From NCBI RefSeq assembly GCF_003018115.1, contig NZ_CP027457.1: a stretch of DNA of 64,000 nt; one strand, 5' to 3'. The position numbers and the translations under genes are program-made. The notes under the pieces were generated by a model, which had not been told where the DNA came from, did not search any database, and saw nothing but the letters and a program-made list of their open reading frames with translations. The first letter of the stretch is position 1. The number at the start of each line of letters is the position of its first letter. Below are positions 1,448 through 26,349 of the stretch, in pieces. The stretch comes from Escherichia coli. Lineage in GTDB: Bacteria > Pseudomonadota > Gammaproteobacteria > Enterobacterales > Enterobacteriaceae.

Positions 1448-2119
1448 ATGCAGTACCCGATTAACGAGATGTTCCAGACCCTGCAAGGTGAGGGTTACTT
1501 TACCGGCGTCCCCGCCATTTTTATTCGTTTACAGGGATGCCCGGTTGGCTGTGCCTGGTGCGACACCAAACACACCTGGGAAAAGCTTGAGGATCGGGAA
1601 GTCTCCCTTTTCAGCATTCTGGCGAAGACCAAAGAGAGTGATAAGTGGGGGGCGGCGAGCAGTGAAGATTTGCTGGCTGTCATTGGTCGTCAGGGATATA
1701 CCGCGTGGCATGTGGTGATTACGGGTGGTGAGCCTTGCATTCATGATTTGCTGCCACTGACTGACCTGCTCGAAAAGAACGGTTTTAGCTGCCAGATCGA
1801 AACCAGTGGGACTCATGAAGTACGCTGCACACCGAATACCTGGGTTACCGTATCACCAAAGCTGAACATGCGCGGCGGCTATGAAGTGTTGTCACAGGCA
1901 CTGGAGCGAGCCAACGAAATCAAGCATCCAGTGGGGCGCGTACGTGATATTGAAGCACTGGATGAACTACTGGCAACGCTGACCGATGATAAACCGCGAG
2001 TCATTGCACTGCAGCCGATTAGCCAAAAGGATGATGCCACACGTTTGTGCATTGAAACCTGCATTGCGCGTAATTGGCGTTTGTCGATGCAAACCCATAA
2101 ATATCTAAATATTGCCTGA
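1448..2119 (+). CDS. queE: 7-carboxy-7-deazaguanine synthase (radical SAM)
   Basis: 223 aa; N-terminus MQYPINEMFQTLQGEGYFTGVPAIFIRLQGCPVGCAWCDTKHTW with a CxxxCxxC-type cluster motif typical of QueE. Confidence 0.9.
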   Translation: MQYPINEMFQTLQGEGYFTGVPAIFIRLQGCPVGCAWCDTKHTWEKLEDREVSLFSILAKTKESDKWGAASSEDLLAVIGRQGYTAWHVVITGGEPCIHDLLPLTDLLEKNGFSCQIETSGTHEVRCTPNTWVTVSPKLNMRGGYEVLSQALERANEIKHPVGRVRDIEALDELLATLTDDKPRVIALQPISQKDDATRLCIETCIARNWRLSMQTHKYLNIA

Positions 2120-2379
2120 TTAAACATTTATAAGCGTTATAAATGGGTGGAACCTGTAAAGACTTCTACTCATTTATATTGTTTGTCGCCTCTGAAAACT
2201 CCTCCATTTTCCCCATCCAGGGCTAATCATTAGCATTCTCTACAAATTCTGCGGCATTAATTTTTCGCTGGAGTGAAAATTATTGCGGCAAAGTTTGGTA
2301 GATTTTAGTTTGTATAGAGTTATTTTAAATATTTACCTTTTTAATCAATGGATTAAGCGCTCTTTAACATAATGGATGT

Positions 2380-2458
2380 GTTGTTTGTGTGATACTGTAA
2401 AGTTGGTAGATTGTGACTGGCTTAAAAAATCATTAATTAATAATAGGTTATGTTTAGA
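2380..2458 (+). promoter_or_regulatory. CRISPR leader (AT-rich) immediately upstream of repeat 1
   Basis: AT-rich ...tggtagattgtgactggcttaaaaaatcattaattaataataggttatgtttaga directly abutting the first repeat; resembles the E. coli I-E leader from memory. Confidence 0.6.
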
Positions 2459-3219
2459 GAGTTCCCCGCGCCAGCGGGGATAAACCGAAAATTGGGACGC
2501 TAACTCATGGGTCTGGGTAGAGTTCCCCGCGCCAGCGGGGATAAACCGGGAAAAACGCCTGTGGTTGGGGCTGAACCAGGGAGTTCCCCGCGCCAGCGGG
2601 GATAAACCGTCGGCGCGCTCTCTGTAGAGCGGTTGTGTGATGAGTTCCCCGCGCCAGCGGGGATAAACCGTCGTCGGGTCCGACAGGGGTCGGTTGTTCG
2701 CCGAGTTCCCCGCGCCAGCGGGGATAAACCGGCTTAATAAACGAGGAGAATACCGATGTTTTTAAGTTCCCCGCGCCAGCGGGGATAAACCGTTCTTTTA
2801 ATGGCGTCAGGCCCATTACAGAGCGAGTTCCCCGCGCCAGCGGGGATAAACCGTTTTGACGATTATTCTAAAAGTGAAAATAGCAGAGTTCCCCGCGCCA
2901 GCGGGGATAAACCGCACGCTGGAGTGACCGGGTGGCAGAGCATGACGAGTTCCCCGCGCCAGCGGGGATAAACCGCCATTTCATCATGAACGGCGGAAAT
3001 ATCGTGGGAGTTCCCCGCGCCAGCGGGGATAAACCGGTCAGTTCCCGGTTGATATATATGATGAGCATGAGTTCCCCGCGCCAGCGGGGATAAACCGCGC
3101 AATGGCGCGGCGATTGCTCTCGAGATCAAGTGTTCCCCGCGCCAGCGGGGATAAACCGGGTACAAAAGAGGCCCCATTCTGGCAGGGCTCGAGTTCCCCG
3201 CGCCAGTGGGGATAAACCA
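2459..3219 (+). CRISPR. Type I-E CRISPR array, 13 repeats and 12 spacers (queE-ygcE side)
   Basis: 29-bp repeat GAGTTCCCCGCGCCAGCGGGGATAAACCG at 2459, 2520, 2581, 2642, 2703, 2764, 2825, 2886, 2947, 3008, 3069, 3130, 3191 with exact 61-bp period and 32-bp unique spacers. Repeat 6 starts AAG, repeat 12 starts GTG, terminal repeat 13 is degenerate (..CCAGTGGGGATAAACCA). Confidence 0.97.
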
Positions 3220-3308
3220 CCATATAACCCGTTATCTCTTTCTCAAGTTTTTATATTAGCTGTACTTGTAATAAGCAACATATCCACGTAACACCTCATG
3301 TTCATAAT

Positions 3309-3332
3309 AGTTCCCCATGCCAGATAAGTTCA
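3309..3332 (+). repeat. Decayed CRISPR repeat remnant
   Basis: agttccccatgccagataag resembles the repeat with an internal deletion, about two repeat-spacer units beyond the terminal repeat. Confidence 0.3.
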
Positions 3333-3687
3333 CAATTATCGATACAAAAAATTAAAGTTAATCAAAGTGTTATTTGTATAATTCTTAAGCCGTTAAGAAA
3401 TTTTAATCTATTATTTTTTTAATATTAATTAATGCCTGTTAATTTTTTCTTTAGTATAACAGTGTGTTTTTTAAGCTTGTTATTCATTGATTAAGTAATA
3501 AATCTGGAAATTTGTCTTTGTTTTGAGGCTAATGAGTGGTTTTACATAACCGCCTCTATACGCTGTTGATGAATAGTTCTTATGAATAAAGATATCCAGT
3601 TCATACTTTAAGTGAAAATTGATAAAGTGCGATTCGTATTGTCTTTTATTCTAAAGACATCGAGTGTAGTTAATATTCCTTGTAAAA

Positions 3688-3810
3688 ACAGGGATAAACC
3701 GAACTAGTTGAAGTTTTTATTATGTTCCCTGCATCAGCGGGGATAAACCGGACTTGTTATCATTTTTTAAGTTGTCGAACTTATGTTCCCCGCGTCAGCG
3801 GGGATAACCA
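3688..3810 (+). CRISPR. Degenerate satellite CRISPR array (3 repeat copies, 2 spacers), preceded by an AT-rich leader-like stretch
   Basis: Partial repeat ..acagggataaaccg (3688-3701), 20-bp spacer, repeat ATGTTCCCTGCATCAGCGGGGATAAACCG (3722-3750), 32-bp spacer, repeat ATGTTCCCCGCGTCAGCGGGGATAACC (3783-3810). Confidence 0.8.
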
Positions 3811-3856
3811 TTCAGGTATGTTCAGGCCGGGCAGTTTCCCGCCCGGTCTTCCTCAC

Positions 3857-5335
3857 TTACGCATTCGACCAGCTCTGGATCGAATCCGCATTCCCCAATT
3901 CCCCATGCATCACTTCATACGATTTTTTCAGGATCACATCAGTATGTTTGGTTAGGGCTTTGAAAATACCTTTATTCATCGCGTCGTAGCGTTTGGCATT
4001 GCTCTCAACAGGCATAAAGATATCTTTCACGCGAACCATTTTGTCGACAGCCGTTGCGTAATCCGGGTATAGCCCCAGACCTACCGCCGTATTGATCGCT
4101 GCCCCCAGACTTGCACAACCGTTAATGGCGTTACGGCGTGCAGGAAGGTTGAACACGTCGGCAAAAATTTGCATAAATAGATCGCTGTTCGAACCGCCGC
4201 CAGTAATGATCACATGCTTTGCAAAGTGATTCATTTCATTACACATATTGTCGTAATTGTTCTTCAGCGTCAGCGCCACGCTTTCCAGTATCGAACGATA
4301 TATCCATGCGTAATCCATGCTGGAATCAAAGCCGATCATAATCCCACGTTTGTAGGGTTCCCACGGGTTGGTCAGCCAGTCCAGCACCGTCATCAGACCA
4401 TTACAGCCAGGCGGCACACAAGAAGCTTTTTTGTTGAGCAAATCTTCCGGTGAAAGATCCTGTGCTTTGGCATCCTGAATTAACGACTCGCCTAACATGT
4501 CGCGTAGCCAGCTCACCGTCCACATGCCTTTACGGATACCGTACCCTTCATACAGCAATGTTTCCGGAATAGAAGACATAATCGGCCAGTACGCCACCGG
4601 ATCTTTCGGCAGTGCTTTACCGTTCATCATCAGCGCGATGTAGGTGCCAAGAGAAATCACCGCCGTTTCATCATCCAGCAATCCGGCTCCCAGAGCTTCT
4701 ACCGGTTTATCACTGGTGGTACAAACAACCGGCAGCCCTGCCGGGAAATGTGTCGCCAGCGCGGCTTGAGGTGTGATCTGTCCAAGAACAGTGCCTGGCA
4801 TTTGCACATCAAACAGCATATGACGGGGGATATTAAACTTCTCCATGACTGCGGCATCTTCACTCCATGCCCAGCTCTTATAATCCACCGGCCACTGACC
4901 AAAATAGTTGGCGATATTGTCTTTAAACTCGCCGGTTAAGCGATGCGTCAGATAACCCGAAAAAGAGGTGACATATGCCACGTCAGGATTAGTGTGTTCG
5001 TAGGGACGCGTTACGCGTGCATCCTGCCAGCTAATCAATGGCGCAGCTGGCGTGCCATCGGCTTTCAATAACGCACGGCAGCAACGGATGGATCCCAGAC
5101 CAATACCGACAATATCTTCTTTATTCCCGGCAAACTGACTCATCAAATCGTGACCGGCAAAACATAATGATGCCCATAAATCGTCGTCAGGATGTTCTGC
5201 GGTATCGGCATCTGGCGTGTGCATCGGCTGCAATAAGCCTTTACCTTCGCAAACCACATTACCTTCCAGATCGTACATCACCACTTTTGTGCTCTGACTT
5301 CCGCCATCAATCCCTATGATGTATTTTTTCGACAT
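3857..5335 (-). CDS. ygcE: FGGY-family carbohydrate kinase
   Basis: 492 aa; N-terminus MSKKYIIGIDGGSQSTKVVMYD (FGGY kinase N-terminal motif); synteny. Confidence 0.88.
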   Translation of the reverse strand: MSKKYIIGIDGGSQSTKVVMYDLEGNVVCEGKGLLQPMHTPDADTAEHPDDDLWASLCFAGHDLMSQFAGNKEDIVGIGLGSIRCCRALLKADGTPAAPLISWQDARVTRPYEHTNPDVAYVTSFSGYLTHRLTGEFKDNIANYFGQWPVDYKSWAWSEDAAVMEKFNIPRHMLFDVQMPGTVLGQITPQAALATHFPAGLPVVCTTSDKPVEALGAGLLDDETAVISLGTYIALMMNGKALPKDPVAYWPIMSSIPETLLYEGYGIRKGMWTVSWLRDMLGESLIQDAKAQDLSPEDLLNKKASCVPPGCNGLMTVLDWLTNPWEPYKRGIMIGFDSSMDYAWIYRSILESVALTLKNNYDNMCNEMNHFAKHVIITGGGSNSDLFMQIFADVFNLPARRNAINGCASLGAAINTAVGLGLYPDYATAVDKMVRVKDIFMPVESNAKRYDAMNKGIFKALTKHTDVILKKSYEVMHGELGNADSIQSWSNA

Positions 5336-5361
5336 GATTTTTCTCCTGTAATTTTCCTGGC

Positions 5362-6639
5362 TTACTTGCTGCTAGCTATTGCGGGGGCGCTATCAGCAGT
5401 ACGAATTTTTTGGAACAGCAAAAAGGTAAAGACAATCACCATGGCAAGCGCCGCCATTCCCATCAGCCACATATTGCGGTAGGCTTCTGCTGCGGGCAGG
5501 GTGTCTTGCCAGTGGCCGATAATTGGGTAAACGAAGACATCCGGCAGGAATCCAATCACCGAACAAATACCTACCGTGGTGCCCATAATGTAAGACGGTG
5601 TTCTCGCTTCGCCAGGGCAGGCCCAGTACAGCCCGCGTGAGGCGTAACAGGTGAATCCCAGCAGTATAATCAGGCCAATCCCCATCGCGACCGATTGCGG
5701 GTTAGAGTTCGTGACGAGCAGGGCAGTTAACGCCAGCAGGCCGAGTACGGAAAGGATTTGGATCACGCGGGTAGGGGATTTCACTTTACTGTAGGTGGTG
5801 ATAATGCCGCCAAGTGGGCCGCACAGCGCGCGGAAGATTTTGTTGATCACAATCCCCATGTAGCTCGCCGCCACCAGCGACATGCCGTACATTTCGGTCA
5901 GATAGTTGGTGGAGTAACTCAGAATGGCGTAGATGGTGAAGACACCAAAAATCACCATGCTGCAATACCAGGTGGTGCTGATGCGCAAAACGGCCAGGAT
6001 GTCGCTAAGCTGGAATGACTGTTTTTCTTCGTTATTGGCACTGCGCAGGTTGTTGTTATCGCTAACAAAAAACCAGCACAGAATCCCCAACAAGATGTAA
6101 ACCACACTATAGATGATAATGACCGTTTTCAGGCTGGTGCTGTCATCCGGTGCAAAGCGAGAAAAGACCCACATGGTAAACACCGCCAGCGACATTACAC
6201 CGACGCCGCGCAGCCCTTCCATCCAGCCCATAATTTTCCCTTGCTCGCTATGATCGCCAAGCAACGAGGCGGCTTTAATCGACACCGACCACAGCATTAA
6301 AATCGTTGTTATCGCAAAGGCGACCTGAATACAGAGCATTACCCACAGCGGTGGATACGTTGCCATTAACAGACCCAGTAATCCGGTAATGATCATCGCG
6401 GAAGTAATCATTTTGCGGTGTGAAAATTTATCGGCAATAACGCCGCTGGGGGCATAAAGAATAATAGCCGCAATACCAAAGGTACTCATTATTAAACCTA
6501 TCTCGGTATTGCTGAATCCCATAAATTTCGCCATGGGAATTTGATAAATATAACGTAAATAAGCCAGGTCGAAACTAACGCCGCCGCTAAAACTAATTAT
6601 CGCGAGGGTTATCCAACGGCGATATGAGTTGTGTTGCAT
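5362..6639 (-). CDS. yqcE: MFS transporter
   Basis: 425 aa, multiple hydrophobic TM segments; 26 bp upstream of ygcE, likely co-transcribed. Confidence 0.85.
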   Translation of the reverse strand: MQHNSYRRWITLAIISFSGGVSFDLAYLRYIYQIPMAKFMGFSNTEIGLIMSTFGIAAIILYAPSGVIADKFSHRKMITSAMIITGLLGLLMATYPPLWVMLCIQVAFAITTILMLWSVSIKAASLLGDHSEQGKIMGWMEGLRGVGVMSLAVFTMWVFSRFAPDDSTSLKTVIIIYSVVYILLGILCWFFVSDNNNLRSANNEEKQSFQLSDILAVLRISTTWYCSMVIFGVFTIYAILSYSTNYLTEMYGMSLVAASYMGIVINKIFRALCGPLGGIITTYSKVKSPTRVIQILSVLGLLALTALLVTNSNPQSVAMGIGLIILLGFTCYASRGLYWACPGEARTPSYIMGTTVGICSVIGFLPDVFVYPIIGHWQDTLPAAEAYRNMWLMGMAALAMVIVFTFLLFQKIRTADSAPAIASSK

Positions 6640-6663
6640 ATCGTATTCCCATTTGTAATAGAC

Positions 6664-6711
6664 AAAAAAAAGAGAAAAGTAAGCCTCCCTTTCAGGTGGA
6701 TTACTTTTCTC
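6664..6711 (-). terminator. Intrinsic terminator in the yqcE 5' leader (minus strand)
   Basis: On minus strand: gagaaaagtaa - 18-nt loop - ttacttttctc followed by TTTTTTTT, ending about 25 nt before the yqcE ATG (6639). Confidence 0.55.
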
Positions 6712-6760
6712 AGGTCTCTAGTAATTGAAATAATAAATAACATGGAAAGCAGAGGTGTTG

Positions 6761-6776
6761 TGTGAGAGTAATCACG
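6761..6776. promoter_or_regulatory. CRP-like site (TGTGA-N6-TCACG), positioned for a class II promoter reading toward yqcE
   Basis: tgtgagagtaatcacg, 9/10 match to the CRP half-sites. Confidence 0.4.
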
Positions 6777-6817
6777 CTTCTGCTTTTTAAAATTATTTGA
6801 CAATACGAATATCACAC

Positions 6818-6833
6818 TGTGATTACGATCACA
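6818..6833. promoter_or_regulatory. Consensus CRP site (TGTGA-N6-TCACA) upstream of ygcW
   Basis: tgtgattacgatcaca, perfect match to both CRP half-sites; a TTGACA -35-like hexamer at 6797-6802. Confidence 0.55.
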
Positions 6834-6859
6834 TTAGCAGTTATGTCCTTATGCTAAAA

Positions 6860-6884
6860 ATTATCTCCAGTTACCAGAGATAAT
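6860..6884 (+). other. Leader RNA hairpin (8-bp stem, 9-nt loop) upstream of the ygcW leader terminator
   Basis: attatctc-cagttacca-gagataat perfect inverted repeat. Confidence 0.4.
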
Positions 6885-6890
6885 GAGAAA

Positions 6891-6933
6891 GGTAACTTCC
6901 CTCTCGCGGGGGAAGTTACCTTTCTTTTTTTTT
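6891..6933 (+). terminator. Intrinsic terminator in the ygcW 5' leader
   Basis: ggtaacttccc-tctcgcgg-gggaagttacc (11-bp perfect stem) followed by TTTCTTTTTTTTT, ending 25 nt before the ygcW ATG (6958). Confidence 0.75.
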
Positions 6934-6957
6934 GCCTTACGGAAATTGGAGCTAACT

Positions 6958-7743
6958 ATGTCAATCGAATCTCTCAATGCGTTCTCAATGGATTTTTTCT
7001 CCCTGAAAGGTAAAACAGCAATTGTTACCGGCGGGAATAGCGGTTTAGGTCAGGCATTTGCAATGGCGTTGGCCAAAGCTGGCGCAAATATTTTTATTCC
7101 AAGTTTTGTCAAAGATAACGGCGAAACAAAGGAAATGATTGAAAAACAGGGTGTTGAAGTGGACTTCATGCAGGTGGATATCACCGCAGAAGGCGCACCG
7201 CAGAAGATTATCGCTGCCTGCTGTGAGCGCTTCGGTACCGTCGATATTCTGGTTAACAATGCCGGTATTTGTAAGCTGAATAAGGTGCTGGATTTCGGTC
7301 GTGCCGACTGGGATCCAATGATTGATGTGAACCTGACCGCCGCATTCGAGTTAAGCTACGAAGCGGCAAAAATTATGATCCCGCAGAAAAGCGGTAAAAT
7401 TATTAATATCTGTTCATTGTTCTCTTACTTAGGTGGACAATGGTCACCTGCTTATTCAGCCACTAAACATGCTCTTGCCGGATTCACCAAATCCTATTGC
7501 GATGAATTAGGTCAATATAATATTCAGGTGAATGGTATTGCCCCGGGATATTACGCTACCGATATCACTCTGGCGACCCGTAGTAATCCAGAAACTAACC
7601 AGCGCGTTCTTGATCATATTCCGGCAAACCGTTGGGGCGATACTCAGGATTTAATGGGCGCAGCCGTATTCCTCGCAAGTCCGGCATCGAATTATGTCAA
7701 CGGGCATTTATTAGTGGTTGATGGCGGTTATTTAGTGCGCTAA
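6958..7743 (+). CDS. ygcW: Short-chain dehydrogenase/reductase (SDR)
   Basis: 261 aa from ATG 6958 (SD ggag upstream); TGGNSGLGQA Rossmann motif; ORF track start 6883 lies inside the leader terminator and is rejected. Confidence 0.88.
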   Translation: MSIESLNAFSMDFFSLKGKTAIVTGGNSGLGQAFAMALAKAGANIFIPSFVKDNGETKEMIEKQGVEVDFMQVDITAEGAPQKIIAACCERFGTVDILVNNAGICKLNKVLDFGRADWDPMIDVNLTAAFELSYEAAKIMIPQKSGKIINICSLFSYLGGQWSPAYSATKHALAGFTKSYCDELGQYNIQVNGIAPGYYATDITLATRSNPETNQRVLDHIPANRWGDTQDLMGAAVFLASPASNYVNGHLLVVDGGYLVR

Positions 7744-7812
7744 CCCATAACGGTGGTTTCTGTTTTCTCTTATTAATGATTATTCCATTTTTATTATCAG
7801 GAAGGAATTACT

Positions 7813-9267
7813 ATGTCTTTATCTCGCGCAGCGATTGTCGACCAGCTAAAGGAAATTGTTGGTGCAGATCGCGTAATTACCGATGAAACAGTATTAAAGA
7901 AGAACAGTATTGACCGTTTTCGTAAATTTCCGGATATTCATGGCATTTATACTTTGCCGATTCCGGCAGCGGTCGTAAAACTCGGTTCCACAGAGCAAGT
8001 ATCCCGTGTGCTGAATTTTATGAATGCGCACAAAATTAACGGTGTGCCGCGTACCGGTGCTTCCGCCACCGAAGGTGGGCTGGAAACTGTTGTAGAAAAC
8101 TCGGTGGTGCTCGACGGTTCCGCCATGAATCAAATCATTAATATTGATATTGAGAATATGCAGGCGACGGCGCAATGTGGCGTTCCGCTGGAGGTGCTGG
8201 AAAACGCGTTGCGTGAAAAAGGTTACACCACGGGGCATTCTCCGCAGTCAAAGCCGCTGGCGCAGATGGGCGGCCTGGTAGCAACCCGCAGTATCGGGCA
8301 GTTCTCCACACTCTACGGCGCAATCGAAGATATGGTCGTTGGTCTGGAAGCAGTATTGGCTGATGGCACCGTGACACGTATTAAAAACGTGCCACGCCGC
8401 GCGGCTGGCCCGGACATTCGTCACATCATCATCGGCAACGAAGGTGCATTGTGCTATATCACTGAAGTAACAGTGAAAATCTTTAAATTCACCCCGGAAA
8501 ACAACCTCTTCTACGGCTATATCCTGGAAGACATGAAAACCGGCTTCAACATCCTGCGTGAAATCATGGTGGAAGGGTATCGTCCGTCGATCGCTCGTTT
8601 GTATGACGTTGAAGATGGCACCCAACACTTCACCCATTTTGCCGACGGAAAATGCGTGCTGATCTTTATGGCTGAAGGTAACCCTCGCATTGCGAAGGCG
8701 ACGGGCGAAGGGATTGCGGAAATCGTTGCCCGCTACCCGCAATGCCAGCGCGTGGACAGCAAGCTGATCGAAACCTGGTTTAACAACCTGAACTGGGGAC
8801 CGGATAAAGTGGCTGCCGAACGTGTGCAGATCCTCAAAACCGGCAACATGGGCTTTACCACCGAAGTGTCCGGCTGCTGGAGCTGCATCCACGAAATCTA
8901 CGAAAGTGTTATTAACCGTATTCGTACCGAGTTCCCGCACGCCGACGACATCACTATGCTGGGCGGTCACTCCTCTCATAGCTATCAGAACGGCACCAAC
9001 ATGTACTTCGTCTACGACTACAACGTTGTCGACTGTAAGCCGGAAGAGGAAATCGACAAGTACCACAATCCGCTCAACAAAATCATTTGCGAAGAAACCA
9101 TTCGCCTCGGTGGTTCGATGGTGCACCACCACGGTATCGGTAAACATCGCGTTCACTGGAGCAAACTGGAACACGGCAGCGCGTGGGCGTTGCTGGAAGG
9201 GCTGAAAAAGCAATTCGATCCTAACGGCATTATGAACGCGGGTACTATCTATCCGATTGAAAAATAA
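7813..9267 (+). CDS. ygcU: FAD-linked oxidase (alkyl-DHAP synthase-like)
   Basis: 484 aa; synteny and size. Confidence 0.85.
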   Translation: MSLSRAAIVDQLKEIVGADRVITDETVLKKNSIDRFRKFPDIHGIYTLPIPAAVVKLGSTEQVSRVLNFMNAHKINGVPRTGASATEGGLETVVENSVVLDGSAMNQIINIDIENMQATAQCGVPLEVLENALREKGYTTGHSPQSKPLAQMGGLVATRSIGQFSTLYGAIEDMVVGLEAVLADGTVTRIKNVPRRAAGPDIRHIIIGNEGALCYITEVTVKIFKFTPENNLFYGYILEDMKTGFNILREIMVEGYRPSIARLYDVEDGTQHFTHFADGKCVLIFMAEGNPRIAKATGEGIAEIVARYPQCQRVDSKLIETWFNNLNWGPDKVAAERVQILKTGNMGFTTEVSGCWSCIHEIYESVINRIRTEFPHADDITMLGGHSSHSYQNGTNMYFVYDYNVVDCKPEEEIDKYHNPLNKIICEETIRLGGSMVHHHGIGKHRVHWSKLEHGSAWALLEGLKKQFDPNGIMNAGTIYPIEK

Positions 9268-9273
9268 TGTGTC

Positions 9274-9338
9274 AGGCAGCGTCCCGTGATGACGGGGCGT
9301 TGCCTTTTCGGCTTCTCAGGTGAGAAGCCGTTCTTATT
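9274..9338 (+). terminator. Tandem hairpins between ygcU and ygcS; the second is a terminator-like hairpin 23 nt before the ygcS start
   Basis: Hairpin 1 ggcagcgtcccg-tgatga-cggggcgttgcc (two G-U pairs) then CUUUU; hairpin 2 cggcttctc-aggt-gagaagccg then TTCTTATT. Confidence 0.5.
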
Positions 9339-9360
9339 ACCGGACAATGAAGGGGTAAAG

Positions 9361-10698
9361 ATGAACACTTCACCGGTGCGAATGGATGATTTACCGCTTA
9401 ACCGTTTTCACTGTCGAATTGCTGCGCTCACTTTCGGCGCACACCTGACCGACGGTTATGTTCTCGGCGTCATTGGTTACGCCATTATTCAACTTACGCC
9501 CGCCATGCAACTGACGCCGTTTATGGCGGGAATGATCGGCGGCTCGGCGCTCCTTGGTTTGTTTCTTGGCAGCCTGGTTCTTGGGTGGATCTCCGACCAT
9601 ATTGGTCGGCAAAAAATCTTCACCTTCAGCTTTTTGCTGATTACGCTCGCTTCGTTCTTGCAATTTTTTGCCACCACGCCAGAGCATCTTATTGGGCTGC
9701 GCATTTTGATCGGCATTGGGCTGGGAGGCGATTACTCAGTCGGTCACACCTTGCTGGCTGAATTTTCCCCGCGCCGCCATCGCGGTGTTTTGCTGGGCGC
9801 ATTCAGCGTGGTGTGGACCGTAGGCTATGTGCTGGCAAGTATTGCCGGACATCACTTTATTTCCGAAAACCCGGAGGCCTGGCGCTGGCTACTGGCATCG
9901 GCAGCTCTGCCCGCGTTGTTGATTACGTTATTACGCTGGGGAACGCCAGAATCGCCACGCTGGCTACTGCGCCAGGGGCGTTTTGCAGAAGCTCACGCTA
10001 TCGTGCATCGCTATTTTGGTCCCCATGTTTTACTGGGCGATGAAGTGGTAACGGCGACCCATAAACACATCAAAACCTTGTTCTCTTCGCGTTACTGGCG
10101 GCGCACGGCGTTTAACAGCGTCTTCTTTGTCTGCCTCGTAATCCCATGGTTTGTGATTTATACCTGGCTGCCAACTATCGCCCAGACTATTGGTCTGGAA
10201 GATGCGCTGACTGCCAGCCTGATGCTTAATGCGTTGTTAATTGTGGGCGCGCTGCTGGGATTAGTTCTGACGCACCTGCTGGCACATCGCAAATTTTTGC
10301 TGGGAAGTTTTTTGCTGCTGGCGGCAACGCTGGTAGTAATGGCCTGTTTGCCTTCCGGCAGTTCATTAACGCTGCTGCTTTTTGTTCTCTTCAGCACCAC
10401 CATTTCGGCAGTCAGTAATCTGGTGGGCATTTTGCCTGCGGAAAGTTTTCCTACTGACATTCGCTCGCTGGGCGTCGGTTTTGCCACCGCCATGAGTCGA
10501 CTTGGCGCGGCGGTAAGTACTGGCCTGCTGCCGTGGGTGCTGGCGCAGTGGGGAATGCAAGTCACCTTATTGCTCCTGGCGACAGTGTTGTTGGTTGGTT
10601 TTGTTGTGACCTGGCTATGGGCACCAGAAACCAAAGCCCTCCCGCTGGTGGCGGCGGGAAATGTAGGAGGTGCGAATGAACATTCTGTTAGCGTTTAA
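9361..10698 (+). CDS. ygcS: MFS transporter
   Basis: 445 aa from ATG 9361 (MNTSPVRMDD...); ORF track start 9286 rejected. Confidence 0.85.
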   Translation: MNTSPVRMDDLPLNRFHCRIAALTFGAHLTDGYVLGVIGYAIIQLTPAMQLTPFMAGMIGGSALLGLFLGSLVLGWISDHIGRQKIFTFSFLLITLASFLQFFATTPEHLIGLRILIGIGLGGDYSVGHTLLAEFSPRRHRGVLLGAFSVVWTVGYVLASIAGHHFISENPEAWRWLLASAALPALLITLLRWGTPESPRWLLRQGRFAEAHAIVHRYFGPHVLLGDEVVTATHKHIKTLFSSRYWRRTAFNSVFFVCLVIPWFVIYTWLPTIAQTIGLEDALTASLMLNALLIVGALLGLVLTHLLAHRKFLLGSFLLLAATLVVMACLPSGSSLTLLLFVLFSTTISAVSNLVGILPAESFPTDIRSLGVGFATAMSRLGAAVSTGLLPWVLAQWGMQVTLLLLATVLLVGFVVTWLWAPETKALPLVAAGNVGGANEHSVSV

Positions 10699-12312: not shown

Positions 12313-12317
12313 CGTGT

Positions 12318-12428: not shown

Positions 12429-12459
12429 AAACCAAATTCAATTGGTTACGATTATCCCG

Positions 12460-13035: not shown

Positions 13036-13051
13036 AAATTATCCTTATTAT

Positions 13052-19651: not shown

Positions 19652-19817
19652 ATATTGCCGGATAAATTAAACGCCTCTGTCAGAAATGATGGGGGCGTTT
19701 TTATTTTGCGAGCAGCATTCCTGATTTTAAACGTGAACGCCGCTGGAAGAATTATCAGGTATAGAATGGCGTCGGGTGCTTGAGGCTGTCTGGCGTTAAG
19801 CATTCGCGAGGTTCCAG

Positions 19818-19922
19818 ATGGACAAAAGCCCCAGGCGATATTTCTATCAACCTGAGGCTTACGTTCGAACCCAAACAATTCGAATGTTAGTCTCTTCTTT
19901 GCAGGGAGGCAAGACATGCTGA
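19818..19922 (+). CDS. mok-like upstream ORF (34 aa), translationally coupled to hok
   Basis: ATG 19818 with SD gagg 7 nt upstream; stop TGA overlaps the hok start (ATGCTGA). Confidence 0.35.
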
Positions 19923-20068
19923 CAAAATATGCCCTTGTGGCAATCATCGTACTGTGTTGTACAGTACTGGGATTCACGCTGATGGTAGGTGACTCGTTGT
20001 GTGAGTTGAGTATCAGAGAACGTGGTATGGAGTTTAAGGCAGTTCTCGCTTACGAATCGAAGAAGTAG
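19916..20068 (+). CDS. Hok/Gef-family type I toxin (50 aa membrane peptide)
   Basis: [50 protein letters not shown]; hydrophobic N-terminal helix plus the SLCE(I/L).(I/Y)R...EV.A..AYES.K signature of Hok proteins; SD ggagg 6 nt upstream; below the 60-aa cutoff of the ORF track. Confidence 0.8.
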
Positions 20069-20261
20069 CCACCACGCGGGGGTAAAACCCCGCGTACTGA
20101 ATTGTGATGGTTTGGTCTCCTGCACCCTTTTTTAAAATTTATATTTTTTATGTGAATATATAGTCTCTATTTATTATTATGAATTTCAAATGAAAATCAT
20201 TAATTTATTCATAATGTAAATGTTTTATTGGCTGATATATATCACAGATAATTTTTAAAAT

Positions 20262-22358
20262 ATGCGTAAATATCCTTTAAGTTTACTGAAGGATAAAAAT
20301 ATTGTGACTTTTTTTGATTTCTGGGGAAAAACCCGACGCGGCGAGAAAGACGGGGGCGACGACTATCACCTTCTTTGCTGGCATTCGCTGGATGTAGCCG
20401 CGATGGGCTATTTAATGGTTAAAAGAAATTGCTTCGGGCTGGCTGATTATTTTCGTCAATTAGGGATTTCTGACAAGGAACAGGCGGCTCAATTTTTCGC
20501 CTGGTTGCTGTGCTGGCACGATATTGGAAAATTTGCCCGCTCTTTTCAACAACTTTACCTGCCCCCTGAACTCAAGATTCAGGAAAGTGCCAGAAAAAAT
20601 TACGAAAAAATCTCTCATTCAACGCTGGGCTACTGGTTGTGGAATCATTATTTAAGTGAATGTCAGGAGTTACTTCCTTCATCTTCGCTCTCTCCGCGCA
20701 AACTTAGGCGAGTGATAGAAATGTGGATGCCCGTGACGACAGGGCATCATGGTCGGCCCCCTGATCGTATGGATGAATTGGATAATTTTCTGCCTGAAGA
20801 CAAAGCTGCAGCACGAGATTTTCTCCTTGAAATCAAACCACTGTTTCCGCTCATAGAGATCCCCGCATTCTGGGATGATGATGAGGGCATTGAACTTATA
20901 AAACACCTTTCCTGGTATATCTCTGCAACCGTCGTGCTCGCAGACTGGACGGGTTCGTCAACGCGATTTTTTCCACGCGTCGCACACCCAATGGATATTA
21001 AAGGTTACTGGCAGAAAACTTTAATTCAGGCTCAAAACGCCTTAACCGTCTTTCCTCTAAAAGCAAAAGTCGCGCCTTTCAACGGAATTAATACGCTGTT
21101 TCCTTTTATTGAGAATCCGACACCGTTACAGCAAAAGGTGCTGGATCTGGATATCAGCCAGCAAGGACCGCAGTTATTTATTCTGGAAGATGTGACTGGC
21201 GCAGGTAAAACAGAAGCGGCGCTTATCCTGGCGCACAGGTTGATAGCTGCGGGGAAAGCTCAGGGGCTGTTTTTTGGTCTGCCAACAATGGCAACGGCCA
21301 ATGCCATGTACGATCGGCTGGTCAAAACCTGGCTTGCTTTCTATTCGCCAGAATCCCGCCCCAGCCTGGTGCTGGCACATAGTGCCCGCACATTAATGGA
21401 CCGCTTTAATGAATCACTCTGGTCTGGTGATTTAGTCGGGTCAGAAGAACCGGATGAACAAACGTTCAGTCAGGGATGTGCGGCCTGGTTTGCCGACAGT
21501 AACAAGAAGGCGTTGCTGGCTGAAATTGGCGTCGGCACGCTGGATCAGGCGATAATGGCGGTGATGCCGTTCAAACATAATAATCTGCGGCTTCTGGGGC
21601 TGAGTAACAAAATCCTGCTGGCTGATGAGATCCACGCCTGTGACGCTTACATGTCGTGCATTCTTGAAGGGTTGATCGAGCGGCAGGCGCGTGGCGGAAA
21701 CAGCGTTATTTTGCTTTCTGCCACGTTATCTCAACAGCAGCGCGACAAACTCGTCGCTGCCTTTGCGCGGGGTACAGAGGGCCAGCAAGAAGCTCCGTTC
21801 CTGGAAAAGGATGATTACCCCTGGCTGACGCATGTCACGAAATCCGATGTGAACTCACACCGGGTAGCGACGCGCAAAGACGTTGAGCGTAGCGTCAGCG
21901 TGGGTTGGCTTCATAGTGAACAAGAGTGTATTGCGCGTATCGAATCGGCGGTAAGTCAGGGGAAATGCATCGCCTGGATCCGGAATTCTGTCGATGACGC
22001 TATTAAGGTTCATCGTCAGCTGCTTGCCCGCGGCGTCATTCCTGCTTCCAGCCTTTCACTTTTTCATAGCCGCTTTGCTTTTAGCGATCGCCAGCGAATT
22101 GAAACGGAAACGCTGGCACGCTTTGGTAAATATTGTAGTTTACAGAGAGCGTCGCAAGTCATTGTTTGTACACAAGTAATTGAGCAAAGCGTGGATATTG
22201 ACCTGGACGAAATGATCTCCGACCTGGCCCCTGTTGATTTGCTGATTCAGCGAGCAGGACGATTACAGCGGCATATCCGCGATATTAATGGTCAGTTAAA
22301 GCGTGACGTGTTCCCCGCGCCAGCGGGGATAAACCGGGTACACGGATATTCTGTCTAA
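20262..22358 (+). pseudogene. cas3: cas3 (type I-E HD nuclease / DExH helicase), 3'-truncated and fused to CRISPR repeat 1
   Basis: HD-domain motifs (CWHSLDVAA, HDIGKF), Walker A DVTGAGKTEAA, DEAH-type LADEIH; reading frame runs into the first repeat at 22308 (residues VFPAPAGINR encoded by repeat) and stops in spacer 1; about 680 aa of Cas3 sequence against about 890 expected. Confidence 0.85.
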
Positions 22359-22702
22359 AAGTTAACTAGTGTTCCCCGCGCCAGCGGGGATAAACCGACT
22401 GATAACGCCGGAGCCTTCTTTTTCAGCAAGTGTTCCCCGCGCCAGCGGGGATAAACCGAGGTTGACGTTGATTTTGTTCGTTATGTTGCCGTGTTCCCCG
22501 CGCCAGCGGGGATAAACCGACCTCGACAATGACACGGGCGCGAAAACAATCGTGTTCCCCGCGCCAGCGGGGATAAACCGTCGGTGGCTGGATTGAAAAA
22601 GAAGATAATCTGGTGTTCCCCGCGTCAGCGGGGATAAACCGGGCGCACTGGATGCGATGATGGATATCACTTAGAATTCCCCGCCCCTGCGGTAGAACTC
22701 CC
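22308..22702 (+). CRISPR. Type I-E CRISPR array, 6 intact repeats plus 1 degenerate terminal repeat, 6 spacers; no leader
   Basis: Repeat GTGTTCCCCGCGCCAGCGGGGATAAACCG at 22308, 22369, 22430, 22491, 22552, 22613 (61-bp period, 32-bp spacers); repeat 6 carries cgcgTcag; degenerate copy gaattccccgcccctgcggtagaactc at 22674-22702. Confidence 0.95.
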
Positions 22703-22722
22703 AGCTCCCATTTTCAAACCCA

Positions 22723-23760
22723 TCAAGACGCCTTCGCCAGCTCCTTCACCAGCGGTAGCATTATCCGCATAACATCACGGCAGCGACGTTCTATTCTTCC
22801 AGGAAGTGCCTTATCAATATGTTGTTGATTATCCAGTCTTACGTCATGCCAGCTATTTCCCGCCGGGAAGGCAGGTGTTTTTGCGCGTTGCTGATAACCA
22901 TCCTTATTCCCAAGATTCCAGTTAGTCGCTTCCACCGAAAGTACAGCAATGCCCGCTTTGTCGAATATTTCTGCGTCATTACAACACCCAGTGCCTTTCG
23001 GATAATTTTTATTCAAACCCGGATTGGTCGTTGCGGCTATTCCGTGACTGCGCGCAATTGCCAGCGCCCTGTCGCGCGTTAATTTCCTTACTGCTTCAGG
23101 GGTTTTTACACCGCTGTTGAAATACAATTTATCGCCAACAATTAAGTTATCGAGATTAATCACCAGCAGCGTATTTTTCTTTTCGGTGTCACTCATCCGC
23201 TTGAGTAAATTCTCAGCGCCTAATTTCCCTTCCTCTTCGCCGCTGGTCGCCACAAATCGAATACCATACTCGGTAGGCGTATTTTTCAGGCGTTCTGCCA
23301 ATTCCAGCATGACACCTAAACCTGCGGCGTTATCATCCATTCCTTGTAACGTCAGCCCGCCGAGATTGGCATCGGCGTCAGCATCGCTCAGCGGGGCGTA
23401 AGTATCCAGATGCGCCATAATGATGATCTGCTGCGGCGCTTTGCCTTCATGAGCGGCAATCACCGTACTTCCTGTCACGTTATGCCAGTTCTTGCGATTA
23501 TCGCGGGCGGTATAAATATACCGACTATTAAATGTCCGAATATCACTGCGATAACCCATTTGCTGAAACTGTTGGCGAATATAATCGGCAGATAACATTT
23601 CTGCAGGAGTTCCGGTCATGCGTCCCGGAAAGAAAGTAGCAATATGTCGTGCCTGAGTATTAGCAAAATCGCCAGGTTTAGGTGACGAGGCGTGTACGGG
23701 GAGAATAAAGCATACGCCGAGCGCCAGGGCAGCGGTACGGTGGCGCAATGCGGAAAACAT
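22723..23760 (-). CDS. iap: Alkaline phosphatase isozyme conversion aminopeptidase
   Basis: 345 aa with N-terminal signal peptide; synteny next to CRISPR and cysD. Confidence 0.88.
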   Translation of the reverse strand: MFSALRHRTAALALGVCFILPVHASSPKPGDFANTQARHIATFFPGRMTGTPAEMLSADYIRQQFQQMGYRSDIRTFNSRYIYTARDNRKNWHNVTGSTVIAAHEGKAPQQIIIMAHLDTYAPLSDADADANLGGLTLQGMDDNAAGLGVMLELAERLKNTPTEYGIRFVATSGEEEGKLGAENLLKRMSDTEKKNTLLVINLDNLIVGDKLYFNSGVKTPEAVRKLTRDRALAIARSHGIAATTNPGLNKNYPKGTGCCNDAEIFDKAGIAVLSVEATNWNLGNKDGYQQRAKTPAFPAGNSWHDVRLDNQQHIDKALPGRIERRCRDVMRIMLPLVKELAKAS

Positions 23761-24011
23761 AGTGAGTCCTTAAATACCATGCAAATTTTTTTACCGCCAT
23801 AGTATGAAACTGCCGCTGCGCTAAAACAATTTCAAATATTCCTAAACGCCCGAAATCCGGTGCCTTAAGCACTTTTTGATATTAGCTTTGCCAAATCGTT
23901 ATTCCGTTAAGGAACTACTCATTCTAATTGGTAATTTCATTCGTTCTCTTACGCTCCCTATAGTCGAAACATCTGATGGCAAGAAAATAGCGGTATTGCA
24001 AAGGAACGGTT

Positions 24012-24920
24012 ATGGATCAAATACGACTTACTCACCTGCGGCAACTGGAGGCGGAAAGCATCCACATTATTCGCGAGGTGGCGGCAGAATTCTCAAATCC
24101 GGTGATGCTCTACTCTATCGGTAAAGATTCCAGCGTCATGCTGCATCTGGCGCGCAAGGCGTTTTATCCAGGTACGCTGCCTTTCCCGTTGCTGCATGTC
24201 GATACCGGCTGGAAATTCCGCGAGATGTATGAGTTCCGCGATCGTACGGCGAAAGCCTACGGCTGCGAGCTGCTGGTGCATAAAAATCCGGAAGGCGTGG
24301 CGATGGGGATTAATCCATTCGTGCACGGCAGCGCGAAACATACCGATATTATGAAAACTGAAGGCCTGAAGCAGGCGCTGAATAAATACGGTTTTGATGC
24401 CGCCTTCGGTGGTGCGCGCCGCGACGAAGAGAAATCCCGTGCTAAAGAGCGTATCTACTCTTTCCGTGATCGCTTCCATCGCTGGGACCCGAAAAATCAG
24501 CGCCCGGAGCTGTGGCACAACTATAACGGGCAGATTAACAAAGGCGAAAGCATCCGCGTTTTCCCGCTCTCTAACTGGACCGAGCAGGATATCTGGCAAT
24601 ACATCTGGCTGGAAAATATCGACATTGTGCCGTTGTATCTCGCTGCGGAACGTCCGGTTCTGGAACGCGACGGTATGTTGATGATGATTGATGACAACCG
24701 TATCGACCTGCAACCGGGCGAAGTGATTAAAAAACGGATGGTGCGTTTCCGTACGCTGGGCTGCTGGCCGCTGACCGGTGCGGTGGAGTCAAATGCACAA
24801 ACACTGCCGGAGATCATCGAAGAGATGCTGGTTTCTACCACCAGTGAACGTCAGGGCCGCGTGATTGACCGCGACCAGGCGGGGTCTATGGAGCTGAAAA
24901 AACGTCAGGGGTATTTTTAA
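24012..24920 (+). CDS. cysD: Sulfate adenylyltransferase subunit 2
   Basis: 302 aa; PAPS-reductase-like fold; cysD-cysN-cysC order. Confidence 0.95.
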
Positions 24921-24921
24921 G

Positions 24922-26349
24922 ATGAACACCGCACTTGCACAACAAATCGCCAATGAAGGCGGCGTCGAAGCCTGGATGATTGCGCAACAACATAAAAGCC
25001 TGCTGCGTTTTCTGACCTGTGGTAGCGTCGATGACGGCAAAAGTACCCTGATTGGTCGCCTGCTGCACGATACCCGCCAAATCTACGAAGATCAGCTCTC
25101 ATCGCTGCATAACGACAGTAAGCGTCACGGCACCCAGGGCGAAAAACTGGATCTGGCTCTGCTGGTGGACGGCCTGCAAGCTGAGCGCGAACAGGGCATC
25201 ACTATTGATGTGGCCTACCGCTATTTCTCTACCGAGAAGCGTAAATTTATTATCGCCGACACCCCCGGGCACGAGCAGTATACCCGCAATATGGCGACCG
25301 GCGCCTCAACGTGTGAGCTGGCGATCTTACTGATCGATGCCCGTAAAGGCGTGCTCGATCAAACCCGTCGTCACAGTTTTATCTCCACGCTGCTGGGGAT
25401 CAAACATCTGGTCGTAGCGATCAACAAAATGGATCTGGTGGATTACAGTGAAGAGACGTTCACACGTATTCGTGAAGATTATCTGACTTTTGCCGGGCAA
25501 CTGCCGGGGAATCTGGATATCCGCTTTGTGCCGCTCTCCGCACTGGAAGGTGACAACGTGGCTTCACAAAGTGAAAGTATGCCGTGGTACAGCGGTCCTA
25601 CACTGCTCGAAGTGCTGGAAACCGTGGAGATCCAGCGAGTGGTGGATGCTCAGCCAATGCGCTTCCCGGTGCAGTACGTTAACCGCCCGAATCTCGATTT
25701 TCGTGGCTACGCCGGAACGCTGGCATCCGGTCGCGTGGAAGTCGGGCAACGTGTCAAAGTGCTGCCCTCTGGTGTGGAATCAAACGTCGCGCGGATCGTG
25801 ACTTTTGATGGTGATCGCGAAGAAGCCTTTGCCGGAGAAGCGATCACCCTGGTGCTGACGGATGAGATCGACATCAGCCGTGGCGATCTGCTGCTGGCGG
25901 CAGACGAAGCGTTACCGGCGGTGCAGAGCGCGTCGGTGGATGTGGTATGGATGGCGGAACAGCCGCTTTCTCCAGGGCAGAGTTACGACATCAAAATTGC
26001 CGGTAAGAAGACGCGCGCGCGTGTTGATGGCATTCGCTATCAGGTTGATATTAATAACCTTACCCAGCGTGAAGTTGAAAACCTGCCACTGAATGGGATC
26101 GGCCTCGTGGATCTCACTTTTGACGAGCCGCTGGTGTTAGATCGTTATCAACAAAATCCGGTGACGGGTGGGCTGATTTTTATCGATCGCCTGAGCAATG
26201 TGACCGTGGGTGCCGGTATGGTGCACGAGCCAGTTAGCCAGGCAACTGCTGCGCCATCTGAATTCAGTGCATTCGAACTGGAATTGAATGCTCTGGTTCG
26301 TCGCCACTTTCCGCACTGGGGCGCGCGCGATTTGCTGGGGGATAAATAA
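24922..26349 (+). CDS. cysN: Sulfate adenylyltransferase subunit 1 (GTPase)
   Basis: 475 aa; GTP-binding motifs [18 protein letters not shown]. Confidence 0.95.

What the first reader, a model, noticed from the sequence alone, without database searches (positions are those of the whole stretch)
2120..3810. Leader-bearing 12-spacer array plus a decayed satellite array, kept although no adaptation genes are present nearby
Array 2459-3219 has 13 repeats with a strict 61-bp period and an AT-rich leader abutting repeat 1. Its terminal repeat is degenerate, a decayed repeat copy follows at about 3309, and a second AT-rich leader-like stretch precedes a three-repeat remnant (3688-3810) with one spacer shortened to 20 bp. 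With cas1/cas2 absent from the locus the spacer content should be frozen. Spacer 5 (2732-2763) contains gaggagaataccgATG, so its protospacer likely spanned a gene start.
Basis: seen in the sequence. Interest (0 to 1): 0.4.

Follow-up and report, generated by a model that had tools for sequence, protein, structure and literature searches.

The report
Orphaned E. coli CRISPR2.3 array
This is the well-known second CRISPR locus of E. coli (array CRISPR2.3 plus the fossil CRISPR2.2), stranded and inert because a deletion 18 kb away removed almost the whole cas operon; it is ordinary, although three of its spacers record conjugative plasmids and the deletion scar is oddly precise.

Summary
The array is real: 13 repeats of the E. 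coli type I-E unit at an exact 61-nt period (2459-3219), 12 spacers, and an AT-rich leader. It lies between queE and ygcE, the described CRISPR-II locus. The "satellite" (3673-3811) is CRISPR2.2, a species-wide fossil shared with K-12, not strain-specific decay. The "second leader" and the "decayed repeat at 3309" are no better than chance.

No cas1, cas2 or Cascade gene lies in the 64 kb.

That deletion allele occurs in 12 of 5,426 complete genomes. It sits in a 5.7-kb tract identical to strain F9792, inside flanks about 0.9% diverged, so it spread by recombination. Array B variants among carriers fit loss-only descent from one ancestor. "Frozen" is therefore broadly right, but from the date the allele was imported.

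Spacers 5, 8 and 12 match IncHI1, IncF psiA and IncF traD with AAG, ATG and ATG PAMs. Spacer 5's protospacer does span a gene start.

Side lead: a second, independent cas3-to-repeat-nt-1 joint exists in strain GF131.

The parts
1448..2119 (+). queE (ygcF), left flank of the CRISPR-II locus
   Evidence: TIGR04322 QueE, E 7.5e-110; annotated queE in syntenic genomes
2120..2458 (+). Leader 2.3 of the CRISPR2.3 array. The last 61 nt (2398-2458) hold the IHF site, and the integrase anchoring site GTAG lies at 2406-2409.
   Evidence: 98.5% identical to the K-12 leader. The last 61 nt are identical and the nearest mismatch is at -62. IBS and IAS are defined experimentally in PMC5224486. GC 31.9%.
2459..3219 (+). 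CRISPR2.3 array: 13 type I-E repeats and 12 spacers of 32 nt at a 61-nt period. Repeat 6 has G1A, repeat 12 is the GTG variant, and repeat 13 is degenerate (2 mismatches).
   Evidence: repeat hairpin -15.1 kcal/mol
2732..2763 (+). Spacer 5: 32/32 match to IncHI1 plasmids (R27, pHCM1). PAM is AAG. The protospacer spans the RBS and ATG of a DUF6012-family gene.
2915..2946 (+). Spacer 8: 32/32 match inside psiA (leading region) of F-like plasmids. PAM is ATG.
   Evidence: 2,949 plasmid places in the E. coli collection
3159..3190 (+). Spacer 12, the oldest: 29/32 match to traD of F-like plasmids. PAM is ATG. Mismatches are at spacer positions 14, 18 and 30. Shared with the O169:H41 clade and with O145 RM9872.
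3220..3672 (.). AT-rich inter-array DNA (28% GC). It is conserved in K-12 and is not a leader homologue. It contains a doubtful fossil repeat at 3308-3336 (16/29).
3673..3811 (+). CRISPR2.2 fossil: three degenerate repeats (18, 24 and 23 of 29, all still able to form the hairpin) with two invariant spacers of 20 and 32 nt
   Evidence: The spacers are identical or 1 mismatch from K-12. Described in PMC4489801.
3857..5335 (-). ygcE (FGGY kinase), right flank of the CRISPR-II locus
20262..22307 (+). cas3 stump (cas-E1 variant), residues 1-682 of 900. The open frame runs on through the first repeat to a stop at 22356-22358.
   Evidence: tblastn 99.3% to E1 Cas3 residues 1-682. NF007248 profile positions 4-665 of 878, below the cut-off because it is truncated. 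Annotated as a pseudogene in relatives.
22307..22308 (+). Deletion joint GCGTGAC|GTGTTCCCC. The cas3 3' end, casA, casB, cas7e, cas5e, cas6e, cas1e, cas2e, leader 2.1 and the newer spacers are missing. The joint falls at repeat nt 1, with 1 nt (G) of ambiguity.
   Evidence: comparison with the intact O111:H8 locus L008, where the last retained nt is L008 10408; the same joint occurs in 12 of 5,426 genomes
22308..22702 (+). Leaderless CRISPR2.1 remnant: 6 GTG-type repeats and 6 spacers, plus a degenerate terminal repeat at 22674-22702
   Evidence: the oldest spacer is shared with O111:H8 and K-12
19717..25410 (.). Recombination tract carrying the deletion allele (hok/sok, cas3 stump, CRISPR2.1 remnant, iap, cysD). 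It shows no substitutions against F9792, apart from an IS insertion specific to F9792.
   Evidence: the same left edge appears against 13E0767

Best explanation
This is the CRISPR-II locus of an Escherichia coli-type chromosome. It holds the leader-bearing type I-E array CRISPR2.3, with 12 spacers, followed 0.45 kb later by the invariant fossil CRISPR2.2.

The array grew spacer by spacer at its leader end while the lineage still had a working cas-E1 operon at the CRISPR-I locus 18 kb away. At least three acquisitions came from conjugative plasmids with proper AWG PAMs.

The cas operon was later replaced, by homologous recombination, with a pre-existing deletion allele. In that allele cas3 is cut after codon 682 and joined directly to a CRISPR2.1 repeat. 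This removes Cascade, cas1, cas2 and leader 2.1.

Since then CRISPR2.3 has been a silent record, for three reasons:
- It cannot acquire spacers, because Cas1-Cas2 is absent.
- Its transcript cannot be processed, because Cas6e is absent.
- It cannot interfere, because Cascade is absent and Cas3 is truncated.

It can now change only by repeat-repeat loss or by recombination.

Shown: the anatomy, the identity of the locus, the absence of cas genes in the window, the deletion boundaries, the recombination tract and the protospacers. Inferred: the order of events, the inertness, and that the leader remains competent for integration.
For: Locus identity
- The repeat, the 61-nt period and the flanks match the described locus.
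- The architecture matches Almendros 2014, PMC3903273, and PMC4489801.
- The leader is 98.5% identical to K-12 and the inter-array region plus CRISPR2.2 is 97.4% identical.
- The last 61 nt of the leader are identical to K-12, including the IAS.

Loss of cas
- Only Cas3 residues 1-682 are detectable.
- The joint was mapped against the intact locus L008.

Single origin and spread of the deletion allele
- The same joint is present in 12 of 5,426 genomes.
- A 5,694-bp tract is identical to F9792, inside flanks with 362 differences over 40.3 kb.
- The same left edge, 19717, appears against 13E0767.
- Six array B variants are all derivable from one ordered ancestor by loss, plus one duplication.

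Genuine acquisitions
- PAMs are AAG, ATG and ATG for spacers 5, 8 and 12.
- Only the trailer-end spacers 11 and 12 are shared with relatives, which is the polarity expected for growth at the leader end.
Against: - The rest of the genome is unseen. An I-E cas1-cas2 elsewhere, for example on a plasmid, cannot be excluded.
- Ten leader-proximal spacers were not seen in any CRISPR array among the listed hits from 5,426 complete genomes, and no genome shares more than two of the twelve spacers. Recent growth is therefore not formally excluded.
- Transcription of the array was not tested. The promoter scan was uninformative: 5 sites against 3.6 expected.
Confidence: 0.85

Rival explanations
1. The array is not frozen. 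It kept growing after the chromosomal cas loss, using type I-E Cas1-Cas2 supplied in trans from elsewhere in the genome or from a transient mobile element. This would work because its leader is intact.
For: - Leader elements needed for integration are identical to the experimentally competent leader.
- Cas-less BL21-AI acquires spacers at leader2.3-CRISPR2.3 when Cas1-Cas2 is supplied (PMC3737337).
- Spacers 1-10 differ from those of strains with the identical deletion allele.
Against: - The recombination tract explains why identical deletion alleles sit next to different CRISPR2.3 arrays, with no need for gain after the loss.
- No I-E cas1/cas2 lies in the 64 kb.
- Chromosomal E. coli I-E cas genes are only known at this locus (PMC3903273).
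Confidence: 0.07
2. The loss of cas was positively selected because the array carried immunity to useful conjugative plasmids: IncF psiA with a perfect match, IncF traD, and IncHI1. Importing the deletion allele removed the barrier. The array is the leftover evidence of that conflict.
For: - Spacer 8 is a perfect match with an interference-proficient ATG PAM to psiA.
- 2,551 of 5,426 genomes hold a match to one of the twelve spacers, and the 2,949 plasmid places shown are psiA hits.
- Plasmids of the O169:H41 carriers contain the psiA protospacer (H135).
- Loss of CRISPR-Cas driven by plasmid selection has been shown experimentally in Staphylococcus (PMC3784566).
Against: - E. coli I-E is normally silenced by H-NS (own knowledge; also stated in PMC4489801).
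- The O169:H41 carriers lack spacer 8.
- It is unknown whether this strain carries an IncF or IncHI1 plasmid.
- Neutral loss fits equally well.
Confidence: 0.2
3. The array is retained by selection for a function independent of Cas, such as regulatory RNA or chromosome structure, and not by inertia.
For: The CRISPR-II locus and its leader are conserved in all E. coli, including cas-less strains (PMC3903273).
Against: - Spacer content is hypervariable between strains.
- No spacer matches the window or the cas genes at up to 7 mismatches.
- Without Cas6e there is no known route to mature crRNA.
Confidence: 0.05

Closest known systems
E. coli CRISPR-II locus (CRISPR2.3 plus CRISPR2.2, ygcE-ygcF/queE), as in K-12 MG1655 and the cas-less BL21-AI
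   Same: - Same position, leader (98.5% identical) and repeat family.
- Same CRISPR2.2 fossil with the same two spacers.
- Same 0.45-0.5 kb gap between the two arrays.
- As in BL21-AI, the array has its leader but no cas genes.

   Different: - The spacer content is unique: no complete genome shares more than two of the 12 spacers.
- Repeats are mostly the GAG variant, where K-12 CRISPR2.3 has GTG.
cas-E deletion and module-exchange arrangements at the E. coli CRISPR-I locus (Almendros et al. 2014, PMC3903273)
   Same: - Loss of leader 2.1 and the cas-E1 genes, with partial depletion of CRISPR2.1.
- hok/sok retained.
- The CRISPR-I region is exchanged between lineages independently of CRISPR-II.

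   Different: The published deletions are mostly attributed to IS elements. Here no IS is at the joint, and the joint falls exactly at nt 1 of a repeat.
Preferential CRISPR targeting of the leading regions of MOBF conjugative plasmids (Westra et al. 2013, PMC3737333)
   Same: Spacer 8 targets psiA, in the leading region of the MOBF plasmids F and R100.
   Different: Published surveys describe E. coli I-E spacers as mostly phage-directed, about 5 to 1 (PMC4489801). Here all three identifiable spacers are plasmid-directed and none matches a phage.

Membership tests
Type I-E CRISPR array (E. coli CRISPR2 repeat family) | 29-nt repeat GWGTTCCCCGCGCCAGCGGGGATAAACCG with a 7-bp stem hairpin | tested here: met
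   12 copies match the 27-nt core exactly and 1 has 2 mismatches. The fold is ....(((((((....)))))))....... at -15.1 kcal/mol.
Type I-E CRISPR array (E. coli CRISPR2 repeat family) | 32-nt spacers (33 nt when the PAM-derived G is counted), unit length 61 | tested here: met
   All 12 spacers are 32 nt and every spacing is 61.
Type I-E CRISPR array (E. coli CRISPR2 repeat family) | Protospacers flanked 5' by an AWG PAM | tested here: met
   All 3 identifiable protospacers: AAG in R27, ATG in R100 psiA, ATG in F traD.
Type I-E CRISPR array (E. coli CRISPR2 repeat family) | AT-rich leader with an IHF site and an integrase anchoring site next to repeat 1 | tested here: met
   The last 61 nt are identical to K-12 leader 2.3, and the IAS GTAG sits at -53..-50. 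Function is inferred from PMC5224486.
E. coli CRISPR-II locus (CRISPR2.3 + CRISPR2.2) | Located between ygcE and ygcF (queE) | tested here: met
E. coli CRISPR-II locus (CRISPR2.3 + CRISPR2.2) | CRISPR2.2 consists of 3 repeats with two invariable spacers, about 0.5 kb from CRISPR2.3 | tested here: met
   Located at 3673-3811. The spacers match K-12 with 0 and 1 mismatches. The definition is from PMC4489801 and PMC3903273.
Complete (functional) type I-E CRISPR-Cas system | cas1 and cas2 present | tested here: not met
   tblastn with both E1 and E2 Cas1 and Cas2 gives no hit in the 64 kb. The rest of the genome is not testable.
Complete (functional) type I-E CRISPR-Cas system | Cascade genes (cse1, cse2, cas7, cas5, cas6e) present | tested here: not met
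   No tblastn hit.
Complete (functional) type I-E CRISPR-Cas system | Full-length Cas3 | tested here: not met
   Only residues 1-682 of 900 remain. The helicase-core profile is cut at position 324 of 358.
Self-targeting / 'anti-CRISPR' array (Touchon & Rocha 2010 sense) | Spacers that match the cognate cas genes or the host chromosome | tested here: not met
   No 32-nt spacer hits the window, the E1 cas operon or the E2 cas operon at up to 7 mismatches. The concept is from PMC2886076.

The most novel reading that the evidence does not exclude
The cas operon may have been removed by CRISPR's own chemistry, not by generic illegitimate recombination. Two routes are possible:
- A spacer acquired from the cell's own cas3 recombined with its protospacer.
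- Cas1-Cas2 joined a chromosome-tethered 3' end to the leader-repeat junction.

Either route would fuse cas3 exactly to nt 1 of a repeat and delete everything between, including leader 2.1.

Support: two independent events have this geometry. One is the window type, found in 12 genomes. The other is GF131, on a cas3 allele 92.6% identical and breaking 123 nt further downstream. In GF131 the 32 nt abutting the repeat are preceded by an ATG PAM.
Probability: 0.15. Interest if true: 0.6.

Novelty: new member of a known kind. Interest (0 to 1): 0.25.

Why it matters
For the array itself, little. It is a textbook orphan CRISPR2.3 plus CRISPR2.2 locus with a new spacer set.

It is useful in three ways:
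1. As a strain marker.
2. As a record that this lineage met IncF and IncHI1 plasmids while it still had working cas genes.
3. As a worked example that a "cas-less" haplotype moves between E. coli backgrounds as a roughly 6-kb recombination patch. An orphan array therefore cannot be dated from the age of the deletion.

If the precise cas3-to-repeat joints prove to be a general signature, they would point to a route by which CRISPR-Cas systems delete themselves. That bears on why cas loss is so frequent in E. coli.

Tried and rejected
1. Self-targeting as the cause of the cas3 breakpoint hotspot. No genome carries a spacer matching the region across or after the breakpoint; all 2,215 matching records are cas3 itself. 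No array unit consists of a repeat plus the 32 nt upstream of the joint; 0 records reach 80% coverage. None of the window's spacers hits cas genes. The idea is unsupported, though a spacer that has since been lost cannot be excluded.

2. Clustering of left breakpoints as evidence of targeting. The window-type and ZF34-type breaks lie 9 nt apart. This is weakened by HZDC01, which has a 96-nt slippage deletion between TTGCTGATTC direct repeats and an allele switch at the same spot. The region is generally fragile.

3. Phage origin of spacers. INPHARED gave only a psiA-bearing fragment and one weak 25/27 hit, and nothing for array B. IMG/VR scans for spacers 1-4, with every sixth base masked, gave nothing.

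4. The second leader upstream of CRISPR2.2 has no similarity to a leader beyond shuffles.

5. The decayed repeat at 3309 is at chance level.

6. The similarity between spacers 3 and 4 flagged by TRF is 16/32, near chance given 190 pairs.

7. The promoter and terminator scan was uninformative.

8. Rfam reported only sok and no CRISPR-DR family.

Technical note: when several loci are fetched between two script calls, only the first reaches the script sandbox. Some arrays were therefore read with get_sequence and pasted into scripts.

Full report
**Observation.** The region 2459-3219 holds 13 direct repeats of GAGTTCCCCGCGCCAGCGGGGATAAACCG. Their start-to-start spacing is exactly 61 nt, and they separate 12 spacers of 32 nt. 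With up to 3 mismatches the repeat core occurs 20 times in the window and never in 100 shuffles. The repeat folds into the canonical 7-bp hairpin at -15.1 kcal/mol. The terminal repeat has two substitutions. The 339 nt between the queE stop codon and repeat 1 are 31.9% GC, against 52.2% for the window. Three degenerate repeats follow at 3673, 3722 and 3783, matching the consensus at 18, 24 and 23 of 29 positions. All three can still form the hairpin. They are separated by spacers of 20 and 32 nt.

Two smaller claims do not hold up. The "decayed repeat at about 3309" matches at only 16/29, no better than about 160 other positions in the window across both strands, and it cannot form the hairpin. 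The AT-rich 3220-3672 stretch has no similarity to leader 2.3 or leader 2.1 beyond shuffled controls.

**What it is.** The flanks are queE (1448-2119) and the FGGY kinase ygcE (3857-5335). In thousands of E. coli genomes the same interval is annotated queE | CRISPR | ygcE. This is the CRISPR-II locus described by Almendros et al. 2014 (PMC3903273) and Garcia-Gutierrez et al. 2015 (PMC4489801). [quoted passage not shown] The window's leader is 98.5% identical to that of K-12. The whole 3220-3860 stretch is 97.4% identical, and both CRISPR2.2 spacers match K-12 with 0 and 1 mismatches. The "decayed satellite", including its 20-bp spacer, is therefore an ancient fixed fossil and not decay in this strain. 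The last 61 nt of the leader are identical to K-12. They include the integrase anchoring site at -53 to -50 and the adjacent IHF site defined experimentally in PMC5224486.

**Where the cas genes went.** A second array on the same strand lies at 22308-22641, next to iap. A 698-codon ORF (20262-22358) reads straight into its first repeat. That ORF is Cas3 of the cas-E1 variant, residues 1-682 of 900, at 99.3% identity. In an intact locus (O111:H8, L008) cas3 continues ...AAGCGTGAC|GGAAAGG and is followed by casA, casB, cas7e, cas5e, cas6e, cas1e, cas2e and leader 2.1. In the window all of that is missing, and GCGTGAC is joined to GTGTTCCCC, the first base of a repeat, with one G of ambiguity. 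tblastn with all sixteen Cas proteins of both E. coli I-E variants finds nothing else in the 64 kb. The statement "no adaptation genes nearby" is therefore correct, and the reason is a defined, IS-free deletion.

**Is the array frozen?** The joint is present in 12 of 5,426 complete E. coli genomes. The O169:H41 clade (F9792 and others) matches the window at 100% over the joint and array B. Yet its CRISPR2.3 array, which is the same size, shares only the window's two oldest spacers; ten of twelve differ. No complete genome shares more than two of the twelve spacers.

A divergence map resolves it. The window and F9792 differ at 362 positions over 40.3 kb outside the array, about 0.9%. They have no substitutions across 5,694 bp (19717-25410), the segment that holds hok/sok, the cas3 stump, array B, iap and cysD. 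The next longest identical run is 1,584 bp. The same left edge, 19717, bounds a near-identical tract against a third background, 13E0767. The deletion allele is therefore a recombination patch that has moved between lineages. This agrees with the published finding that CRISPR-I and CRISPR-II evolve independently.

Array B in six carriers reads as follows:
- 16F5M1D1: a b c d e f g h i j k l m
- window and F9792: b n o k l m
- OkiPb01716: b n i j k l m
- 13E0767: n i j k l m
- JNE23-001: i j j k l m
- WEC: a l m

All six can be derived from one ordered ancestral array by loss plus one duplication. That is what a leaderless, cas-less array should do. The simplest history is that CRISPR2.3 grew in a cas-positive lineage and froze when the deletion allele was imported. 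The freeze dates from that import, not from the original deletion. Whether cas1/cas2 exist elsewhere in the genome cannot be tested here.

**What the spacers remember.**
- Spacer 5 matches IncHI1 plasmids (R27, pHCM1) at 32/32. The context is ttgAAG|GCTTAATAAACGAGGAGAATACCGATGTTTTT.
- Spacer 8 matches psiA of F-like plasmids at 32/32 with an ATG PAM. One search found 2,949 plasmid places for the twelve-spacer query, and all those listed are psiA hits. psiA lies in the leading region, a known preferred CRISPR target on MOBF plasmids (PMC3737333).
- Spacer 12 matches F traD at 29/32 with an ATG PAM. Its mismatches are at positions 14, 18 and 30.
- No other spacer of array A or B matched INPHARED phages or PLSDB plasmids. 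IMG/VR was scanned only for spacers 1-4 and gave nothing. No spacer hits the window or the cas genes.

Three plasmid matches and no phage match is atypical for E. coli I-E, where phage matches outnumber plasmid matches about 5 to 1 (PMC4489801). The numbers here are small.

**Mechanism.** Without Cas1-Cas2 the array cannot grow. Without Cas6e and Cascade its transcript cannot be processed or used. The Cas3 stump lacks the end of its helicase core and its C-terminal domain. The array can change only by repeat-repeat deletion or by recombination. Because the leader is intact, it should become active again if a cas-E module were re-imported, as happens in this species (PMC3903273), or if Cas1-Cas2 were supplied in trans, as in BL21-AI (PMC3737337). 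Plasmid-driven selection for cas loss is a plausible but untested reason for the import (PMC3784566).

**Side lead.** Strain GF131 carries an independent deletion. Its cas3 allele is 92.6% identical, it breaks 123 nt further downstream, and it is again fused to nt 1 of a repeat. The 32 nt abutting that repeat are preceded by ATG, and AWG occurs at 3.4% of cas3 positions. A random right-hand breakpoint would hit nt 1, give or take one base, about 2 times in 61. This geometry is what two routes would leave: recombination between a self-derived spacer and its protospacer, or a half-site integration by Cas1-Cas2.

Three results argue against it. The window-type joint has ATA where a PAM should be. 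No extant array carries such a spacer. The clustering of left breakpoints, including the ZF34-type cas3-cas2 fusion found in 20 genomes, has a mundane explanation, because this part of cas3 is a slippage and recombination hotspot (HZDC01). I rate this reading at about 15%.

**Verdict.** This is a real, correctly described, ordinary orphan CRISPR2.3/CRISPR2.2 locus with a new spacer set. The "frozen" inference is broadly right once recombination is taken into account.

Noticed in passing
window 20262-22702: A cas3 stump (residues 1-682 of 900) is fused, with no IS, to nt 1 of a leaderless CRISPR2.1 remnant. The frame stays open through the first repeat and stops at 22356-22358. The same joint is present in 12 of 5,426 complete genomes.
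   Followed up: yes
L014 (E. coli GF131, NZ_CP172134) 2661-2721: An independent second cas3-to-repeat-nt-1 joint on a diverged cas3 allele, 123 nt downstream of the window's breakpoint. The 32 nt before the joint are preceded by an ATG PAM.
   Followed up: partly
L006 (E. coli ZF34) 2090-2110; equivalent to window 22298: A different deletion found in 20 of 5,426 genomes. cas3 breaks 9 nt upstream of the window's breakpoint and is joined to the interior of cas2e (L008 16692), so leader 2.1 and a full array are kept.
   Followed up: partly
L015 (E. coli HZDC01) 2836-2849; equivalent to L008 10350-10445: A 96-nt in-frame deletion in an otherwise intact cas3, between two TTGCTGATTC direct repeats that bracket the breakpoint hotspot. 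Identity to L008 switches there from 99.5% to 94.9%, which suggests a recombination boundary.
   Followed up: partly
window 19774-20070: A hok/sok-type toxin-antitoxin lies between cysH and cas3: Rfam sok at 113 bits, followed by a Hok/Gef ORF. Published work says it marks cas-E1 and cas-less arrangements but not cas-E2.
   Followed up: no
window 2671-14548 versus L013 (E. coli 13E0767) 14085-14791: 13E0767 lacks about 11.9 kb (CRISPR2.2 and ygcE through ygcN). One deletion end lies inside its CRISPR2.3 array, and about 0.7 kb of other DNA with a hypothetical CDS sits in place of the missing segment.
   Followed up: no
window 25411-25600 (cysN): About 25 differences in 200 bp against F9792, immediately at the right edge of the identical tract. 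This looks like a mosaic or recombination boundary in cysN.
   Followed up: no
window 2459-3219 versus 22308-22641: The repeat nt-2 variant differs between the two arrays. CRISPR2.3 units 1-11 and 13 are GAG (unit 6 is AAG) and unit 12 is GTG. CRISPR2.1 is all GTG, and K-12 CRISPR2.3 is all GTG. F9792 has one extra GTG unit between the window's spacers 11 and 12.
   Followed up: partly
window about 20085 versus L009 (F9792): F9792 carries a 2.7-kb IS insertion (ISVsa5 plus a partial IS186B) between hok and the cas3 stump. The window lacks it, so the IS arrived after the deletion allele formed.
   Followed up: no
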